Source of the DNA: a virus
Lineage: Duplodnaviria > Heunggongvirae > Uroviricota > Caudoviricetes
Strand: one strand, 5' to 3'
DNA length: 64,000 bases
Virus record (IMG/VR): IMGVR_UViG_3300015608_002795
Span: 1 to 64,000 of that record
Below the pieces are notes generated by a model. It worked only from the letters and a program-made list of their open reading frames with translations, did not search any database and was not told where the DNA came from. Positions within the stretch are counted from its first letter, which is position 1. Each line of letters opens with the position of its first letter. Made by a program: the position numbers and the translations under genes. Positions 54,110 to 64,000 of this stretch are shown in pieces.

Positions 54110-54485
54110 GAGTAAAACATTATATAGTGTAGACCCCAAAGACTATCTTAGAGGTAATATTCAAGTAACACTTAGGGTTATTGGTGTTTTTGATACGAAT
54201 AAGGTACATTGGTCATATTATGCTGTATCTACTACTACATCAGTATCAACTAACACTTTAAATATGACAGATGATATTGGAAGCGGTAAGGGAATAATTT
54301 CTTGTAATACTGATTTTGTAAGTCTACTCTTATTTTATCCGAATTTATACGGTGTTAAATTTGCTGATATGGATTCTGCCAAAAAATACATAGATGATTT
54401 TAAAATAAAATGGGAAACAGGCTCGAATAACACGATCCAAGAAGTTCGTGATCAAAAATTAAAAGAACTAACAGATGAAAGCTAA
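54102..54485 (+). CDS. hypothetical protein (127 aa)
   Basis: coupled ORF. Confidence 0.45.
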   Translation: MLKSKTLYSVDPKDYLRGNIQVTLRVIGVFDTNKVHWSYYAVSTTTSVSTNTLNMTDDIGSGKGIISCNTDFVSLLLFYPNLYGVKFADMDSAKKYIDDFKIKWETGSNNTIQEVRDQKLKELTDES

Positions 54486-55482
54486 TATATGGTTTCTCAT
54501 GCCATCAACTGATGCTCCAACTGGTGGTATAAATAACTGCTATAGATTATGTCAAATAGCAGACGAATTGGGGATAAAAGCAAGGGTATTAAGTGAATAT
54601 CCATATGATTTTTGTGATCCAACTGATCTAATAAAGTATTGGGTAGAAATACCAAATGTTGGATTTAGATATGATAAGTATAATCTACCTTGTATTCAAG
54701 AAGGTGATATCGTCGTTTTACCTGAAATTTACGGATGGAGACCACACTTTGATGTTCCTGTTAGAAGAGTTACATATTTACAAAACTGGGCTCTAATGAG
54801 TGAACACTCTTGGGAAAATCACTATTGGACATATAACAATTGGACACATTTATCATATTGTATAGAGGCAGCTCATTATGAGAGATATCAACATCGAACA
54901 AGATTACCAATTGATAGACCAGTAGATTGGCCAGATACTGCTATGATGGTGGGAAAGAAAAAATTAAAATGGACATCCGTTACACCTTATTTCGACTTTG
55001 AAAATTATTCAACCGGGATCAATGACCCAAATAAAATATTAATGCTGCCTAGAAAAATGGGTAATACAATGGATATTTTTAAAAAGGCGTTTGGTGATAA
55101 ACTTGTGGTAGTAGATAATGTAACACCAAAAGAACTACGAGATATCTACAAGGATGTAGGCACTCTTATTATACCTTCTCCAGCTGAAGGATTATCATTT
55201 CCTATGGTGGAAGCCTTGTTATCCGGATGTTGTGTTGTATCTTGGGAATGTGGAGCACCTGAGGAATATCTAATTCATGGAGTTACATCTATGATGGCTG
55301 AGTTCGGTGATATACATGGATTAATAAATCACACTAAATATTTAGTTAGTAATCCGGATGAAATGAAAAAAATGTCGGAACAAGGAAGAAACTTAGTAAC
55401 CAAATTATATACAAAAGAAAAGACAAAGAATGAAATGTATATTGCTTATTATTCATCATTAAAAATCAATCCAGAGTTATGA
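54475..55482 (+). CDS. glycosyltransferase, GT1-like (GT-B)
   Basis: C-terminal 'PSPAEGLSFPMVEALLSGCCVVS' fits the GT4/GT1 'EGFGLxxxEAMAxGxPVI' nucleotide-sugar binding motif. Confidence 0.55.
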   Translation: MKANIWFLMPSTDAPTGGINNCYRLCQIADELGIKARVLSEYPYDFCDPTDLIKYWVEIPNVGFRYDKYNLPCIQEGDIVVLPEIYGWRPHFDVPVRRVTYLQNWALMSEHSWENHYWTYNNWTHLSYCIEAAHYERYQHRTRLPIDRPVDWPDTAMMVGKKKLKWTSVTPYFDFENYSTGINDPNKILMLPRKMGNTMDIFKKAFGDKLVVVDNVTPKELRDIYKDVGTLIIPSPAEGLSFPMVEALLSGCCVVSWECGAPEEYLIHGVTSMMAEFGDIHGLINHTKYLVSNPDEMKKMSEQGRNLVTKLYTKEKTKNEMYIAYYSSLKINPEL

Positions 55483-56195
55483 TAGGAGAATTTAGAAATA
55501 GCCAAATGATAAATGATTATGTGGAGTTTAGTGGTGAGAACATGACTAACTTAGTCAATAAACTATCAAATTATCAATTGATAAACAAAACCGAGTTTCA
55601 TAAATATCAGAATAGTTTTGACTTTTATGAGGAATCTGATACATATATTTATGACCTATTATCCAATAATACAAGTAAAGATAAATTAATTAGTAAGATT
55701 AATTTATTTTCACCATTCTTATTTAAGACAGTTATTAATCCAAATTATAAATCATTTTTAGAATTTGGTGGTGGATTAGGATTATTCTGTGAGATTATTA
55801 AAATGATGAGGCCAGATATGTCAGTTAATTACGCAGATATAAAATCAAAAATATCAGATTTTGCTAAATGGCGATTTGAAAAAAGAAATATTGATGTTAA
55901 TCAAATAATCATACCACAAAATGATTTTGAATTTCCTCAAAAATATGATGTTATTTTTACAGATGCTGTAATAGAACATTTAGAAGAAGAACAACAAGTA
56001 AGGTATATGCAAAAATTAGCATCTTATGTAAGTAACAATGGGGTTTTAATACCACTTATTGATCTTACCGGAAAGGAAGAAATTATGCCAATGCATAATG
56101 ATGTTAATATTATAAATTTACATAACGTTTTAGAAAATTCTGGAATGTATTGTTTATATGGAAAAAATACTTTTTCATCAATATGGAAAAAATAA
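55479..56195 (+). CDS. SAM-dependent methyltransferase-like protein (paralogue of 50250-50957)
   Basis: 'FLEFGGGLGLFC' motif I; C-terminus 'CLYGKNTFSSIWKK' nearly identical to the paralogue. Confidence 0.5.
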   Translation: MIGEFRNSQMINDYVEFSGENMTNLVNKLSNYQLINKTEFHKYQNSFDFYEESDTYIYDLLSNNTSKDKLISKINLFSPFLFKTVINPNYKSFLEFGGGLGLFCEIIKMMRPDMSVNYADIKSKISDFAKWRFEKRNIDVNQIIIPQNDFEFPQKYDVIFTDAVIEHLEEEQQVRYMQKLASYVSNNGVLIPLIDLTGKEEIMPMHNDVNIINLHNVLENSGMYCLYGKNTFSSIWKK

Positions 56196-63069: not shown

Positions 63070-63110
63070 AATAATAATAATAATAATAATAATAATAATA
63101 ATAATAATAA
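63068..63110 (+). repeat. (AAT)14 trinucleotide microsatellite between the GT6-fusion stop and the next start
   Basis: read directly: TAAAATAATAATAAT... uninterrupted. Confidence 0.9.
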
Positions 63111-64000
63111 ATGAATGCAGAAATATTAGAACTCGTATCAAAATATTTAGAAGAAAATAGTCCTAAGTATCTATACAATAAAAATTTTGTAGCCGGTAAA
63201 GATCAAGTTTTATACTCAGGTCCATATTGGGACAATAAGGAAATATTAGCAGCAATTAGCACATTATTAAATGGAAAATGGCTTGTTGCTGGTGAAAATG
63301 TACATAAATTTGAAAGTCAATTTTCTAAGAAATTTGGAGTTAAATATTCACACATGGTTAACTCAGGAAGTTCTGCTAACTTAGTATTGATAGCAGGATT
63401 AAAAAAGTATTTTAAATGGGAAGATGGAGATGAGATAATTGTATCTCCTGTTGGATTTCCAACAACTATTTCCACACTGGTACAAAATAATTTAGTACCA
63501 GTATTCATTGATATCGAATATGACACATTGAATTTTGACCTAAGTCAAATCGAATCCAAAATAACTACTAAAACAAAAGGAATATTCGTTTCTCCGGTTT
63601 TGGGTAATCCACCAGATATGGATAGACTAAAAGAAATATGTGATAAACATCATCTAAAATTAATTGGTGACAGTTGTGACAGTATTGGGACGAAATGGGA
63701 TGGTAAAGATATCAATGAATACTATGTTGCGTGGTCTACCTCATTCTATCCAGCACATCATATTACAACTGGAGAAGGTGGAATGATATCTACAAATATA
63801 GAAGAACTTAAAAAGTTATTTGTAAGTATATCTTGGTGGGGAAGGGATTGTTATTGTGTTGGATCAGCTAACCTCTTATCTTGTGGAACTTGTGGTAATA
63901 GATTTGATAAATGGTTAGAATCATATGATGGGGTAATAGATCATAAATATGTATTTGCTAATATGGGATATAATTTAAAGCCTCTTGATTTACAAGGTGC
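63111..64000 (+). CDS. CDP-6-deoxy-4-keto-hexose 3-dehydrase (RfbH/DdhC, DegT/DnrJ/EryC1 aminotransferase-fold), 3'-partial at the window edge
   Basis: 'KYSHMVNSGSSANLVLIAGL', 'LIGDSCDSIG', 'SFYPAHHITTGEGGMI' and the Cys-rich 'SWWGRDCYCVGSANLLSCGTCGNRFDKW' typical of RfbH-type enzymes. Confidence 0.7.
   Translation, partial: MNAEILELVSKYLEENSPKYLYNKNFVAGKDQVLYSGPYWDNKEILAAISTLLNGKWLVAGENVHKFESQFSKKFGVKYSHMVNSGSSANLVLIAGLKKYFKWEDGDEIIVSPVGFPTTISTLVQNNLVPVFIDIEYDTLNFDLSQIESKITTKTKGIFVSPVLGNPPDMDRLKEICDKHHLKLIGDSCDSIGTKWDGKDINEYYVAWSTSFYPAHHITTGEGGMISTNIEELKKLFVSISWWGRDCYCVGSANLLSCGTCGNRFDKWLESYDGVIDHKYVFANMGYNLKPLDLQG

What the first reader, a model, noticed from the sequence alone, without database searches (positions are those of the whole stretch)
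54475..64000. Glycan-modification cluster with a GT2-GT6 (ABO blood-group-type) fusion enzyme, an RfbH-like 3-dehydrase, GT1, GT2 and duplicated methyltransferases
ORF 61456-63069 fuses an N-terminal GT-A/GT2-like domain to a domain with near-exact GT6 motifs, including AIWHDESHLNKYL, GTLHPGYW, YCDVDMRF and YFVFTNEK. GT6 is the family of human ABO and alpha-1,3-galactosyltransferases. It is rare in prokaryotes, where Bacteroides ovatus is the classic bacterial case. The fusion also has a C-terminal CxxC..CxxC zinc ribbon. The next gene encodes an RfbH/DdhC-type 3-dehydrase, which makes 3,6-dideoxyhexoses. Upstream are a GT2 (60714-61439), a GT1-like enzyme (54475-55482) and two paralogous SAM-methyltransferase-like genes (50250-50957 and 55479-56195). 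The latter share an almost identical C-terminal peptide, evidence of a local duplication. Possible roles are phage-directed remodelling of host surface glycans for superinfection exclusion, or glycosylation of virion proteins or DNA.
Basis: partly seen in the sequence, partly recalled or inferred. Interest (0 to 1): 0.65.

Follow-up and report, generated by a model that had tools for sequence, protein, structure and literature searches.

The report
Huge-phage glycan island with GT2-GT6 enzyme
A very large bacteriophage carries a block of sugar-building genes, including a two-in-one enzyme whose second half is a close relative of the human ABO blood-group transferase; similar gene blocks are already known in large cyanophages, so this is a new example, not a new kind of system.

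Summary
ORF 61456-63069 (537 aa) has three parts. The first is a GT2-type GT-A domain (Pfam 29 bits; AF2 pLDDT 94; Foldseek hits SpsA and K4CP). The second is a GT6 domain (Pfam 2e-48; BoGT6a 1e-44; human ABO 3e-40) containing all four quoted motifs. The third is a conserved Cys4 knuckle. The next gene is an E1/RfbH-type 3-dehydrase (3bcx 1e-79), with the active-site His and Fe-S cysteines kept.

The replicon is a huge phage related to the 642-kb and 635-kb "uncultured phage" genomes, probably with a Bacteroidota host.

The real island starts after a terminator at 60651-60689 and runs at least 8 kb past the window end. That stretch holds an SDR, a C-methyltransferase, GT2, GT17, DUF5672, DUF3431 and a GT11-like gene. 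GT1 plus methyltransferase (54475-56195) lies in a separate unit.

The GT6 domain belongs to the DXD (metal-dependent) phage/Parachlamydia clade. Its residues predict GalNAc transfer to a 2'-fucosylated galactose. GT11-like genes lie within 8 kb of GT6 in 64 of 79 viral loci.

GT6 is not rare: there are 411 viral and 303 cellular stretches. Comparable "LPS" clusters are published for P-SSM2-type jumbo cyanophages. The target, host envelope or virion, is unresolved. Verdict: new member of a known kind.

The parts
60651..60689 (+). Terminator-like hairpin (18-bp stem, 3-nt loop, then a T-rich tail) just after the ClpB-like gene. It marks the upstream boundary of the glycan island.
   Evidence: RNA fold -18 kcal/mol, z = -4.85, 0 of 200 shuffles fold as well. 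Sequence.
60714..61439 (+). Stand-alone GT2 glycosyltransferase (241 aa), the first gene of the island.
   Evidence: Pfam PF00535 E=2.9e-12. 67% identical orthologue in LR756502 at the same position. Homologues lie next to GT6 in Dependentiae and Simkaniaceae MAGs.
61456..62070 (+). N-terminal GT2-type GT-A domain of the fusion enzyme (aa 1-205). Predicted to be an inverting, metal-dependent transferase.
   Evidence: PF00535 29.2 bits, above the 23.3 cut-off. AF2 pLDDT 94.4. Foldseek hits Leptospira GT 6p61 at 2.7e-13, SpsA at 3e-12 and K4CP at 8e-12. Invariant or near-invariant D84, D87, D95, D96, E177 and D178.
62071..62151 (+). Lys/Glu-rich inter-domain linker of variable length.
   Evidence: pLDDT below 50 over aa 205-235. 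Length varies from about 0 to 40 aa among homologues.
62152..62868 (+). GT6 (ABO/alpha3GalT family) catalytic domain (aa 233-471) of the DXD (metal-dependent) type.
   Evidence: PF03414 E=2e-48. NF041524 206 bits. PDB BoGT6a 1e-44 and human GTA/GTB 3e-40. Foldseek 1e-19. D326-V-D328, H348, G350, A381/G383, W415-H-D-E418, A462 and K465 are present.
62914..63066 (+). C-terminal charged helix (aa 487-508) followed by a Cys4 knuckle (C515-x2-C518 ... C530-x2-C533). Predicted to be a small zinc ribbon.
   Evidence: Cysteine positions. The pattern C-x(1-2)-C-G...N-x-C-x2-C-x3-Y is conserved in 10 of 12 aligned homologues. Only a non-significant NCBIfam zinc-ribbon hit, E=0.006. Model confidence is moderate.
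63072..63110 (+). (TAA)13 microsatellite filling the spacer between the fusion gene stop and the RfbH start. It is polymorphic between samples.
   Evidence: Sequence. Copy number is 5, 5, 6, 11, 13 and 16 in six other assemblies of the same phage.
63111..64000 (+). 5' two-thirds (296 of 431 codons) of an E1/RfbH-type PMP- and Fe-S-dependent NDP-4-keto-6-deoxyhexose 3-dehydrase. The gene runs off the window.
   Evidence: NF011936 E=1e-82 for the partial protein and 369.6 bits for the full length (cut-off 423). Yersinia E1 structure 3bcx 1e-79; SFYPAHHIT His and the cysteines DSCD / DCYC / SCGTC are retained. 100% identical to L002.
54475..55482 (+). GT-B glycosyltransferase (Pfam Glycos_transf_1 type), a possible accessory. 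It sits in a different transcription unit, so membership in the island is doubtful.
   Evidence: PF00534 E=1e-10 over aa 207-306 only. No counterpart in the 41-kb LR756502 locus. Separated from the island by hairpins at 57362-57403 and 60651-60689.
55479..56195 (+). Class I SAM methyltransferase. Its start overlaps the GT1 stop by 4 nt. Substrate unknown.
   Evidence: PF08242 35.2 bits. Only weak sub-threshold NCBIfam hits: UbiG and the pseudaminic-acid-associated methylase.
50250..50957 (+). Paralogous methyltransferase-like gene downstream of a NUDIX gene. Membership in the glycan system is unproven.
   Evidence: 36% identity, E=2e-50, to 55479-56195. No Pfam hit of its own. NUDIX upstream.

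Best explanation
The region is the 5' end of a glycan-biosynthesis island in a huge (Mahaphage-like) bacteriophage, probably infecting Bacteroidota.

Extent and content. The island starts after the ClpB terminator at 60714 and runs at least 8 kb past the window. It encodes only soluble enzymes.

The fusion enzyme. ORF 61456-63069 is a bifunctional glycosyltransferase.
- Its GT2-type domain (inverting, DxD) adds a beta-linked sugar.
- Its GT6 domain (retaining, Mn2+/Mg2+-dependent through D326-x-D328, with catalytic E418) then adds an alpha-1,3-linked hexosamine. This is most likely GalNAc from UDP-GalNAc, added to a galactose that carries an alpha-1,2-fucose installed by the island's GT11-like enzyme. 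The product would be a blood-group-A-like cap.
- A C-terminal helix plus Cys4 knuckle probably docks the enzyme to a partner.

The deoxysugar branch. The RfbH/E1-type 3-dehydrase, an RmlD-like reductase and a TylC3-type C-methyltransferase make a rare, probably C-methylated, 3,6-dideoxyhexose nucleotide. The other transferases (GT2, GT2b, GT17) use it.

Shown versus inferred. Shown: domain identities, catalytic residues, gene order and conservation. Inferred: donor, acceptor and linkage. Least certain: the destination. I favour assembly on host lipid-linked envelope glycans (O-antigen or capsule type), using the host's initiation and export machinery. This would change the infected cell's surface, for superinfection exclusion or to avoid loss of progeny on lysed cells, as proposed for jumbo cyanophage 'LPS' clusters. 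I put this at about 45%, against about 35% for glycosylation of the phage's own virion.
For: Phage identity: the best matches are the 642-kb and 635-kb 'uncultured phage' genomes, which are published as Mahaphage with predicted Bacteroidetes hosts (PMC7162821). The window also has 41 tRNAs, aaRS fragments and homing endonucleases, plus a TonB-dependent receptor with a Bacteroidota-like signal peptide.

Domains.

Catalytic and specificity residues: DVD; E418; H348 and G350 (A1/A2 as in GTA and BoGT6a, not the Gln/Trp of alpha3GalT); A462 (A7 is small, so it admits 2'-fucose); A381/G383 (as in the GalNAc-using BoGT6a). The structural meaning of these positions comes from PMC3516806. PaGT6, a DXD-clade enzyme, was shown experimentally to transfer GalNAc to H-antigen and to need Mg/Mn.

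Coupling to GT11:
- A GT11-like gene is in this phage's island and in LR756502.
- GT11 is two genes from GT6 in P-SSM2.
- 11 of the 120 best homologues are GT6-GT11 fusions.
- A GT11-like ORF lies within 8 kb of GT6 in 64 of 79 IMG/VR loci, median distance 1.4 kb.

Coupling to the GT2 domain: N-domain-like GT2 genes lie adjacent to GT6 in either order in viral contigs, and are fused in this lineage and in a giant-virus MAG.

Deoxysugar branch.

Island conserved in LR756502.

Boundaries.

Published precedent for the host-surface reading: PMC1079782, PMC7824862 and PMC12801897.
Against: - No biochemical, expression or glycan data exist for this phage.
- Donor and acceptor are inferred from a handful of residues and from gene neighbourhood only.
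- No nucleotidyltransferase, 4,6-dehydratase or E3-type reductase for the RfbH branch is visible in the 27 kb inspected.
- No initiating phosphoglycosyltransferase, flippase, polymerase or ABC transporter is present. None of the 14 island proteins has a TM-like segment. None of 79 viral GT6 loci has a polytopic membrane ORF, against 9 of 80 cellular loci. The DXD clade lacks the BHB membrane-association tail of lipid-acting bacterial GT6 (PMC3516806). These points fit a cytosolic protein acceptor (the virion) at least as well as a lipid-linked one.
- The GT6 part of the full-length AF2 model is low-confidence.
- RfbH scores below NCBI's equivalog cut-off.
Confidence: 0.55

Rival explanations
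1. Virion glycosylation. The island is an autonomous, fully cytosolic glycosylation system that decorates the phage's own capsid, tail or fibre proteins with an A-antigen-like, deoxysugar-containing glycan. Giant viruses and some mycobacteriophages do this. The role could be shielding, adhesion or mimicry.
For: - All island proteins are soluble.
- No polytopic membrane protein occurs in any of 79 viral GT6 loci, whereas 9 of 80 cellular loci have one.
- The phage-type GT6 clade lacks the membrane-association BHB domain (PMC3516806).
- The C-terminal Zn knuckle could be a protein-docking module.
- A giant-virus MAG encodes a 1113-aa GT2-like+GT6 protein.
- The island includes eukaryote- or giant-virus-flavoured families: GT17, GT11, DUF3431 and DUF5672.
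- Phage virion glycosylation has precedent (Freeman et al. 2023, cited in PMC12619734).
Against: - The island lies next to ClpB, HU and tRNA/aaRS-type genes, not next to recognisable structural genes.
- Cellular homologues of the same DXD clade (Dependentiae, Chlamydiae) presumably build envelope glycans.
- Peripheral GTs of O-antigen pathways also lack TM helices, so solubility is not decisive.
- No acceptor protein has been identified.
Confidence: 0.33
2. Bifunctional polymerase. The GT2-GT6 protein is a two-active-site synthase that alternately adds a beta- and an alpha-linked sugar to build a repeating-disaccharide polymer, in the way K4CP chondroitin polymerase or heparosan synthase work. 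On this reading it does not cap an oligosaccharide.
For: It has two complete GT-A catalytic domains in one chain with conserved active sites. The N-domain's structural neighbours include K4CP and PmHS2, which are such polymerases.
Against: - The two domains occur as separate genes, in either order, or apart in most relatives. A stand-alone GT6 sits behind a GT31-like GalT in LR745206.
- The tight association of GT6 with GT11 fits capping of a fucosylated galactose.
- All characterised GT6 enzymes are non-processive terminal transferases (established knowledge; PMC3516806).
Confidence: 0.07
3. Passenger DNA. The genes are a recently captured fragment of a host O-antigen or capsule locus with no role in infection.
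For: The gene families are typical of bacterial surface-polysaccharide loci. The best cellular hit is a Flavobacterium MAG contig (51%). One assembly carries a nonsense codon in the GT6 domain.
Against: - GT2, the fusion, RfbH, SDR, GT2b, GT17, u325, DUF5672, DUF3431 and the GT11-like gene are all conserved (44-77% aa identity) in a divergent 642-kb phage, behind the same ClpB anchor.
- Catalytic residues are invariant across 13 homologues of 39-78% identity.
- Composition is the same ~29-30% GC as the rest of the window.
- The GT6 is not the NXN/BHB Bacteroides type.
- The same phage and island recur in many samples with at most 5 amino-acid changes in the fusion.
Confidence: 0.03
4. DNA hypermodification. 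The transferases glycosylate modified bases in phage DNA.
For: Phage GT-A and GT-B enzymes that glycosylate 5hmC exist (bioRxiv 10.1101/2023.12.21.572611). A DHFR gene lies 0.4 kb upstream of the GT1 gene.
Against: - No thymidylate-synthase-like hydroxymethylase, TET/JBP-type dioxygenase or C5-MTase was found anywhere in the 64-kb window or the 27-kb island.
- GT6, GT11 and GT17 plus a dideoxyhexose pathway are hallmarks of oligosaccharide assembly.
- Known DNA GT-A enzymes resemble JGT, not GT6.
Confidence: 0.02

Closest known systems
GT6 (PSSM2_268) and the 'LPS / cell-wall synthesis and modification' gene clusters of large T4-like cyanophages (P-SSM2, S-CAM9, S-SCSM1 and others)
   Same: - Phage-borne, contiguous cluster of several GT families plus NDP-sugar-modifying enzymes.
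- Includes a DXD-type GT6 with a GT11 nearby.
- The GT6 domain is 46-47% identical to the window's.
- The same functional hypotheses are published (PMC1079782, PMC7824862, PMC12801897).
   Different: - Here the host is probably Bacteroidota and the phage a >600-kb-class Mahaphage relative, not a cyanomyovirus.
- GT6 is fused to a GT2 domain and a Cys4 knuckle, whereas P-SSM2 has a 231-aa minimal enzyme.
- The island carries an E1/RfbH dehydrase plus a C-methyltransferase branch, GT17, DUF3431 and DUF5672, which the P-SSM2 stretch I inspected lacks.
Bacteroides ovatus BoGT6a and human ABO transferases GTA/GTB (CAZy GT6)
   Same: - Same fold and catalytic WHDE(S) glutamate.
- Same acceptor-contact residues (His A1, Gly A2, small A7) and the same small 266/268-equivalent residues as the GalNAc-transferring enzymes.
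- About 40% identity.
   Different: - BoGT6a has NAN instead of DXD, is metal-independent and carries a C-terminal basic-hydrophobic-basic membrane tail (PMC3516806, PMC3961637).
- Vertebrate enzymes are type II Golgi membrane proteins.
- The phage domain is soluble, has DVD and is embedded in a fusion.
Parachlamydia acanthamoebae PaGT6 and the DXD 'minimal' prokaryote/phage GT6 clade
   Same: DXD motif and no BHB tail. PaGT6 was shown to transfer GalNAc to H-type acceptors with a Mg2+/Mn2+ requirement (PMC3516806). Many cellular relatives of the window's domain are from Chlamydiae and Dependentiae.
   Different: PaGT6 is a single-domain 27-kDa protein of a cellular organism. The window's enzyme has two extra modules.
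Yersinia pseudotuberculosis E1 (AscC/DdhC; RfbH in Salmonella), CDP-6-deoxy-L-threo-D-glycero-4-hexulose 3-dehydrase
   Same: Full-length alignment (272 bits). The His that replaces the PLP lysine is kept, and so are the cysteines of the [2Fe-2S] site.
   Different: - It scores below the NCBIfam equivalog cut-off (369.6 vs 423).
- No E3 reductase, cytidylyltransferase or 4,6-dehydratase is nearby.
- It is followed by a C-methyltransferase, so the end product is probably not one of the classical 3,6-dideoxyhexoses.
Multi-domain viral and bacterial glycosyltransferases: E. coli K4 chondroitin polymerase K4CP, and from my own knowledge PBCV-1 A064R (two GT domains plus a methyltransferase)
   Same: Two GT-A catalytic domains in one chain act on consecutive steps. 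K4CP is a structural neighbour of the N-domain.
   Different: The second domain here is GT6, which is retaining and alpha-1,3. There is no evidence of processivity. The homologous modules are unfused in most relatives.

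Membership tests
CAZy GT6 / Pfam PF03414 | Significant match to the family profile above the curated threshold | tested here: met
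   165.2 bits against a cut-off of 25, E=2e-48. phmmer to BoGT6a 1e-44 and to ABO 3e-40.
CAZy GT6 / Pfam PF03414 | GT-A fold | tested here: met
   The AF2 model matches ABO and BoGT6a structures by Foldseek at 1e-19, TM(target) 0.65-0.79. The model's GT6 part has only moderate to low pLDDT.
CAZy GT6 / Pfam PF03414 | Catalytic Glu in the W-H-D-E motif (E303 in GTA/B, E317 in alpha3GT, E192 in BoGT6a) | tested here: met
   W415-H-D-E418 is present and invariant in 114 of 114 aligned domains.
CAZy GT6 / Pfam PF03414 | Retaining alpha-1,3 transfer of Gal or GalNAc to beta-galactoside | not testable with these tools
   Needs an enzyme assay and product NMR or MS.
GT6 clade 1 (DXD, 'minimal' phage/Parachlamydia type; Thiyagarajan et al. 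2012) | DXD metal-binding motif | tested here: met
   D326-V-D328.
GT6 clade 1 (DXD, 'minimal' phage/Parachlamydia type; Thiyagarajan et al. 2012) | Minimal single catalytic domain | tested here: not met
   The 537-aa protein has an N-terminal GT2 domain and a C-terminal helix plus Cys4 knuckle. By NJ tree and identity the domain still sits among the metagenomic DXD sequences.
GT6 clade 3 (bacterial BoGT6a type) | NXN in place of DXD, and a C-terminal basic-hydrophobic-basic membrane tail | tested here: not met
   DVD, not NXN. There is no hydrophobic C-terminal segment: maximum KD19 is 1.11 and it lies in the domain core.
CAZy GT2 / Pfam PF00535 (N-terminal domain) | Profile match above threshold, GT-A fold, acidic DxD-type motif | tested here: met
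   29.2 bits against 23.3. pLDDT 94.4. SpsA, 6p61 and K4CP at E 1e-11 to 1e-13. D95-D96 are invariant, and E177 (near-invariant) with D178 (invariant) are also conserved. phmmer alone found no PDB hit.
RfbH / E1 3-dehydrase (NCBIfam NF011936 equivalog) | Score above the equivalog cut-off | tested here: not met
   369.6 bits against 423 for the full-length protein from L002. It is the best hit by far, so this is an E1-like subfamily member, not a proven equivalog.
RfbH / E1 3-dehydrase (NCBIfam NF011936 equivalog) | His replacing the Schiff-base Lys, and the cysteines of the [2Fe-2S] cluster | tested here: met
   SFYPAHHIT aligns with wild-type E1 (3bcx), where the H220K mutant 3bb8 has K. DSCD, DCYC and SCGTC align with the E1 cysteines.
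RfbH / E1 3-dehydrase (NCBIfam NF011936 equivalog) | Partner E3 (AscD) reductase, and CDP-glucose synthase plus 4,6-dehydratase in the locus | tested here: not met
   None found among the genes of window 48-64 kb or L002 up to window-equivalent 71.4 kb. They may lie elsewhere in the genome or be supplied by the host.
Jumbo-phage 'LPS / capsular polysaccharide modification' clusters (Sullivan 2005; Iyer 2021) | Contiguous phage-encoded set of several GT families plus NDP-sugar-modifying enzymes in a large non-temperate-type phage | tested here: met
   GT2, GT2-GT6, RfbH, SDR, C-MTase, GT2, GT17, two unknown genes (u325, u202), DUF5672, DUF3431 and a GT11-like gene, all on one strand. No integrase or other lysogeny gene was recognised in the window, but the whole genome was not seen.
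Serotype-converting gtrABC-type phage modules | GtrA flippase, GtrB bactoprenol glucosyltransferase and a polytopic serotype-specific Gtr | tested here: not met
   No membrane proteins in the island and no matching Pfam or NCBIfam hits.
Phage DNA-glycosylation systems | GT co-located with a 5hmC/5hmU-forming enzyme (ThyA-like hydroxymethylase or 5mYOX) and/or a T4 alpha/beta-GT-type or JGT-like fold | tested here: not met
   No such domains in the window or the island. The folds are GT6 and SpsA-like GT2.

The most novel reading that the evidence does not exclude
The huge phage uses this membrane-free, fully cytosolic island to glycosylate its own virion with a blood-group-A-like, C-methyl-dideoxyhexose-containing glycan. 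That would be a bacteriophage counterpart of the autonomous glycosylation machinery of giant eukaryotic viruses. The viral DXD GT6+GT11 module, found in 64 of 79 viral GT6 loci, would be the ancestral reservoir from which vertebrate ABO-type enzymes were acquired.
Probability: 0.3. Interest if true: 0.65.

Novelty: new member of a known kind. Interest (0 to 1): 0.35.

Why it matters
This extends phage-borne glycan clusters carrying an ABO-type GT6, known from large cyanomyoviruses, to the largest known class of phages, which probably infect Bacteroidota. It also gives a natural GT2-GT6-zinc-knuckle fusion that could be expressed and tested directly.

The survey made here is a concrete, testable lead. 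Viral GT6 genes are numerous, almost always of the metal-dependent DXD type, usually next to a GT11 fucosyltransferase-like gene, and never next to export machinery. This suggests that blood-group-A/B-like epitopes are widespread viral products.

That bears on two open questions: where vertebrate ABO genes came from, since horizontal transfer from the DXD clade has been proposed; and whether large phages decorate host surfaces or their own particles.

It is not a new kind of system. The individual families, multi-domain GTs and the cluster concept are all published.

Tried and rejected
- phmmer of the N-domain alone against PDB found nothing. The profile search with A2 was dominated by the GT6 columns and gave no information on the N-domain. 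This was resolved with a separate AF2 model and Foldseek.
- Foldseek with the full-length model returned only GT6 structures.
- A close-pattern scan of IMG/VR with the single protein found no relative. The alignment-based scan did.
- The sigma-70 promoter scan is uninformative: 53 sites against 62.7 expected. The organism is probably Bacteroidota-associated, with other promoter types.
- A within-population dN/dS estimate was abandoned. There are only 0-5 nucleotide differences per gene between assemblies.
- The DNA-glycosylation, gtrABC-type seroconversion and 'captured host fragment' readings were considered and rejected (see rivals and membership tests).
- The longer ORF start at 61357 (and JGI's 565-aa call, P0001) was not adopted. 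Most homologues start at MK[VI]GV, and the ENA calls give 537 aa. A short basic N-terminal extension, as in P0008 and P0010, cannot be excluded.
- The unknown proteins u325 and u202 gave no significant Pfam or NCBIfam hit. u202 has only a weak methyltransferase hint, E=0.013.

Full report
**Observation**

The ORF map and a motif search confirm that ORF 61456-63069 (537 aa) contains all four quoted motifs: AIWHDESHLNKYL (aa 413), GTLHPGYW (345), YCDVDMRF (324) and YFVFTNEK (272). It also has two CxxC pairs, at aa 515 and 530.
- Pfam gives Glyco_transf_6 at E=2e-48 (aa 233-471) and Glycos_transf_2 at 29.2 bits, above its 23.3-bit cut-off (aa 20-136).
- NCBIfam's GT6 model scores 206 bits.
- The best solved relatives are Bacteroides ovatus BoGT6a (1e-44) and human ABO transferases (3e-40).

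The other assignments also hold.
- 60714-61439 is a GT2 (2.9e-12).
- 54475-55482 is a Glycos_transf_1-type GT-B enzyme (1e-10, C-terminal half only).
- 55479-56195 is a class I methyltransferase.
- Its paralogue 50250-50957 is 36% identical (E=2e-50).
- The gene starting at 63111 is RfbH-like (E=1e-82 for the 296 codons in the window).

**What replicon this is**

The window has about 29% GC, and almost all genes are on one strand and tightly packed. It holds 41 tRNA genes, aminoacyl-tRNA-synthetase fragments, RNA ligases, many GIY-YIG/HNH/LAGLIDADG endonucleases, an SPFH protein, and a TonB-dependent receptor with a Bacteroidota-style signal peptide.

The only similar records in the phage collection are LR756502.1 (642 kb) and LR745206.1 (635 kb), both labelled 'uncultured phage'. 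These sizes match the largest genomes of Al-Shayeb et al. 2020. That paper places them in the Mahaphage clade and predicts that they replicate in Bacteroidetes (PMC7162821).

The same phage occurs on contigs of up to 150 kb in many metagenomes. L002 is 99.96% identical to the window, which lets the region be read 7.4 kb past the window end.

**Anatomy of the fusion enzyme**

I aligned 12 homologues of 39-78% identity.

*N-domain.* D84, D87, D95, D96 and D178 are invariant and E177 nearly so in that alignment; after seven stand-alone homologues are added, D95, D96 and D178 remain invariant and D84, D87 and E177 stay above 90%. These are the DxD-type and 'ED' positions of GT2 enzymes. Modelled alone it reaches pLDDT 94.4. 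It superposes on GT2 structures: Leptospira 6p61 at 2.7e-13, SpsA at 3e-12 and the K4CP chondroitin polymerase at 8e-12.

*Linker.* A Lys/Glu-rich linker of variable length follows.

*GT6 domain.* It keeps D326-V-D328, H348, W415-H-D-E418 and K465. The full-length model matches ABO and BoGT6a structures at 1e-19, although this half is modelled with low confidence because the alignment is shallow.

*C-terminus.* After the GT6 domain come a charged helix and a Cys4 knuckle. The pattern C-x(1-2)-C-G...N-x-C-x2-C-x3-Y is conserved in 10 of the 12 homologues. No profile confirms it; there is only a non-significant hit at E=0.006.

**Which GT6 clade, and likely specificity**

Published work divides GT6 into three clades (PMC3516806):
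1. minimal DXD enzymes of cyanophage P-SSM2, marine metagenomes and Parachlamydia;
2. vertebrate enzymes;
3. bacterial NXN enzymes with a membrane-binding BHB tail.

The window's domain has DXD and no hydrophobic tail. It is 47% identical to P-SSM2 GT6, against 40% to BoGT6a and to vertebrate ABO. In a neighbour-joining tree it sits inside a 45-member group made only of metagenomic DXD sequences, with no vertebrate, NXN-type or P-SSM2 sequence.

The acceptor-determining positions defined structurally in PMC3516806 are of the ABO/BoGT6a type, not the alpha3GalT type (Gln, Trp, Trp):
- A1 is His;
- A2 is Gly;
- A7 is Ala, which is small enough to admit the 2'-fucose.

The 266/268-equivalent residues are Ala and Gly, as in the GalNAc-using BoGT6a. 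PaGT6, a DXD-clade enzyme, transfers GalNAc to H-type acceptors and needs Mg2+ or Mn2+.

I therefore infer a metal-dependent alpha-1,3-GalNAc transferase acting on Fuc-alpha-1,2-Gal. This is inference by homology, not a demonstration.

**The rest of the island**

*RfbH-like gene.* The full-length protein (431 aa) aligns end to end with the Yersinia E1 3-dehydrase structure (3bcx, 1e-79). It keeps the His that replaces the PLP lysine and the Fe-S cysteines. It scores below NCBI's equivalog cut-off, 369.6 against 423 bits.

*Downstream genes*:
- an RmlD-like SDR;
- a 408-aa C-methyltransferase (PF08484);
- another GT2;
- a GT17;
- two unknown proteins;
- DUF5672 and DUF3431;
- a gene 61% identical to a GT11-like (PF01531, 46 bits) protein of LR756502.

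None of these proteins has a TM-like segment. I found no nucleotidyltransferase, 4,6-dehydratase, E3 reductase, initiating transferase, flippase or polymerase.

**Boundaries**

An 18-bp hairpin followed by a T-rich tail lies just after the ClpB-like gene, at 60651-60689 (-18 kcal/mol, z = -4.85). A 17-bp palindromic hairpin follows the HU gene, at 57362-57403. The island proper therefore starts at 60714.

GT1 plus methyltransferase (54475-56195) belong to another unit, together with DHFR and a PARG-like gene. They have no counterpart in the LR756502 locus. Their link to the island is unproven.

**Comparative evidence**

*Related huge phages.* In LR756502 the order ClpB-GT2-fusion-RfbH is kept. 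Almost every island gene has an orthologue at 44-77% identity, with rearrangements such as an SDR+GT2 fusion and an epimerase+C-MTase fusion. In LR745206 the same ClpB anchor is followed by a different set: a GT31-like galactosyltransferase, a stand-alone 226-aa GT6, an FkbM methyltransferase, GT2, a PseB-like dehydratase, a deacetylase, a formyltransferase and a C-MTase. Glycan genes therefore follow the ClpB-like gene in all three phages, with differing content.

*P-SSM2.* GT6 lies in the published 'LPS' cluster with GT2, GT1, GT11, an epimerase and GT25 (PMC1079782).

*Family size.* GT6 is not rare.
- 2607 cluster representatives match the domain, 518 of them at E<=1e-30.
- 303 stretches occur in GTDB species genomes, many from Dependentiae and Chlamydiae.
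- 411 stretches occur in IMG/VR, on contigs of up to 483 kb and in one giant-virus MAG.

*Architectures.* Multi-domain forms are common: GT2+GT6 in roughly 30 of the 120 best hits, GT6+GT11 in 11, and also GT8 and methyltransferase fusions.

*Neighbourhood of viral GT6.* Among 79 viral loci:
- 64 have a GT11-like ORF within 8 kb, at a median of 1.4 kb;
- 22 have an N-domain-like GT2, usually as an adjacent separate gene in either order;
- none has an ORF with six or more TM-like segments, against 9 of 80 cellular loci.

This last measure is crude and the samples are the best-scoring loci only.

**Mechanism and rivals**

The best-supported reading is a phage-encoded, cytosolic glycan assembly line.
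- The fusion enzyme performs two consecutive additions: a beta-linked sugar, then alpha-1,3-GalNAc.
- GT11 supplies the fucose.
- The RfbH/SDR/C-MTase branch supplies a rare deoxysugar.

Where the glycan ends up is not determined. Published opinion for jumbo cyanophages is remodelling of the host surface (PMC1079782, PMC7824862, PMC12801897). This phage also encodes outer-membrane and secreted proteins, which fits that reading.

Other observations fit glycosylation of the virion about as well: the complete absence of membrane steps, the absence of a membrane-association tail, the docking-type knuckle, and the giant-virus homologue.

My estimates are:
- host surface, about 45%;
- virion, about 33-35%;
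- bifunctional polymerase, about 7%;
- inert captured host DNA, about 3%;
- DNA glycosylation, about 2%.

**Novelty**

The families, multi-domain transferases and phage 'LPS' clusters with GT6 are all in the literature, and the closest relative is already public, though unannotated.

New here:
- such an island occurs in a Mahaphage-class phage;
- the GT2-GT6-Cys4 architecture of this lineage;
- the E1 plus C-methyltransferase branch;
- the survey result that viral GT6 is nearly always DXD-type and GT11-linked.

I file this as a new member of a known kind, of moderate interest.

**Caveats**
- All functional statements beyond domain identity are inferred.
- The tree is neighbour-joining on one alignment.
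- The co-occurrence counts have no background control.
- The start codon of the fusion (61456 or an upstream ATG) is not settled.
- The whole genome was not available.

Noticed in passing
window 63072-63110: (TAA)13 microsatellite filling the spacer between the fusion gene's stop and the RfbH start codon. Copy number is 5, 5, 6, 11, 13 and 16 in six other assemblies of the same phage, so it is a polymorphic repeat directly upstream of a start codon. The effect on RfbH translation is unknown.
   Followed up: partly
L007 10084-10086 (equivalent to window 62725-62727): One assembly (ENA ERZ17987007; the contig was seen in 2 samples) has TAT->TAG at invariant Tyr424 of the fusion. This truncates the GT6 domain before K465 and leaves the GT2 domain intact. 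It could be a natural 'O-allele-like' null, a sequencing error or stop-codon recoding. This was not resolved.
   Followed up: partly
window 50913-50948 and 56157-56192: The 3' ends of the two methyltransferase paralogues share a 36-nt segment with only 3 differences, although the proteins are just 36% identical. The segment occurs nowhere else in the window (0 expected by chance) and overlaps the starts of the downstream ORFs. It suggests gene conversion or a conserved regulatory or translational-coupling element.
   Followed up: partly
window 2653-47056: 41 tRNA genes in several arrays, including seven tRNA-Gln, three each of Lys, Glu and Tyr, and two with aberrant anticodon calls. Many are 80-91 nt long.
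   Followed up: no
window 27343-29274 (+) and 16379-16999 (-): The phage encodes a TonB-dependent receptor (Plug plus beta-barrel) and a DNA/RNA non-specific endonuclease. Both have Bacteroidota-style signal peptides, which suggests that the phage places its own proteins in the host envelope.
   Followed up: no
window 56158-56922, 57070-57345, 58515-60632: Between the two glycan-related blocks lie a microbial PARG-like / TIGR02452 macro-type protein (E=4.6e-36), an HU-like DNA-binding protein and a 705-aa ClpB-like double-AAA+ chaperone. The ClpB-like gene is a conserved anchor (74-77% identity) upstream of the variable glycan island in three huge phages.
   Followed up: partly
window 1764-2531, 23560-24486, 24470-24955, 37589-38758; 1067-1858, 2943-3704 and others: Short or fragmentary aminoacyl-tRNA-synthetase-like genes (class I W/Y type, AlaRS fragment, class II core) are interspersed with many GIY-YIG, HNH and LAGLIDADG homing-endonuclease genes, plus two or three RNA ligases.
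   Followed up: no
L090 4499-7837 (IMGVR_UViG_GVMAG-M-3300025138-6_000001): A contig labelled as a giant-virus MAG carries one 1113-aa ORF containing both an N-domain-like GT2 and a GT6 domain (37% identity over query residues 4-474). The fused arrangement is therefore not confined to phages.
   Followed up: no
L009 11404-12675 (LR745206.1): In the 635-kb relative the GT6 is a stand-alone 226-aa gene immediately behind a eukaryote-type GT31 galactosyltransferase (PF01762). The next nine ORFs include FkbM methyltransferase, GT2, PseB-like, deacetylase, formyltransferase and C-methyltransferase genes. This is a different glycan recipe at the same genomic position.
   Followed up: partly
window 52950-53645 and 53642-54109: An Api92-like DUF1281_C protein (E=2.7e-19) lies directly upstream of a DHFR gene. 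No thymidylate synthase was seen in the window.
   Followed up: no
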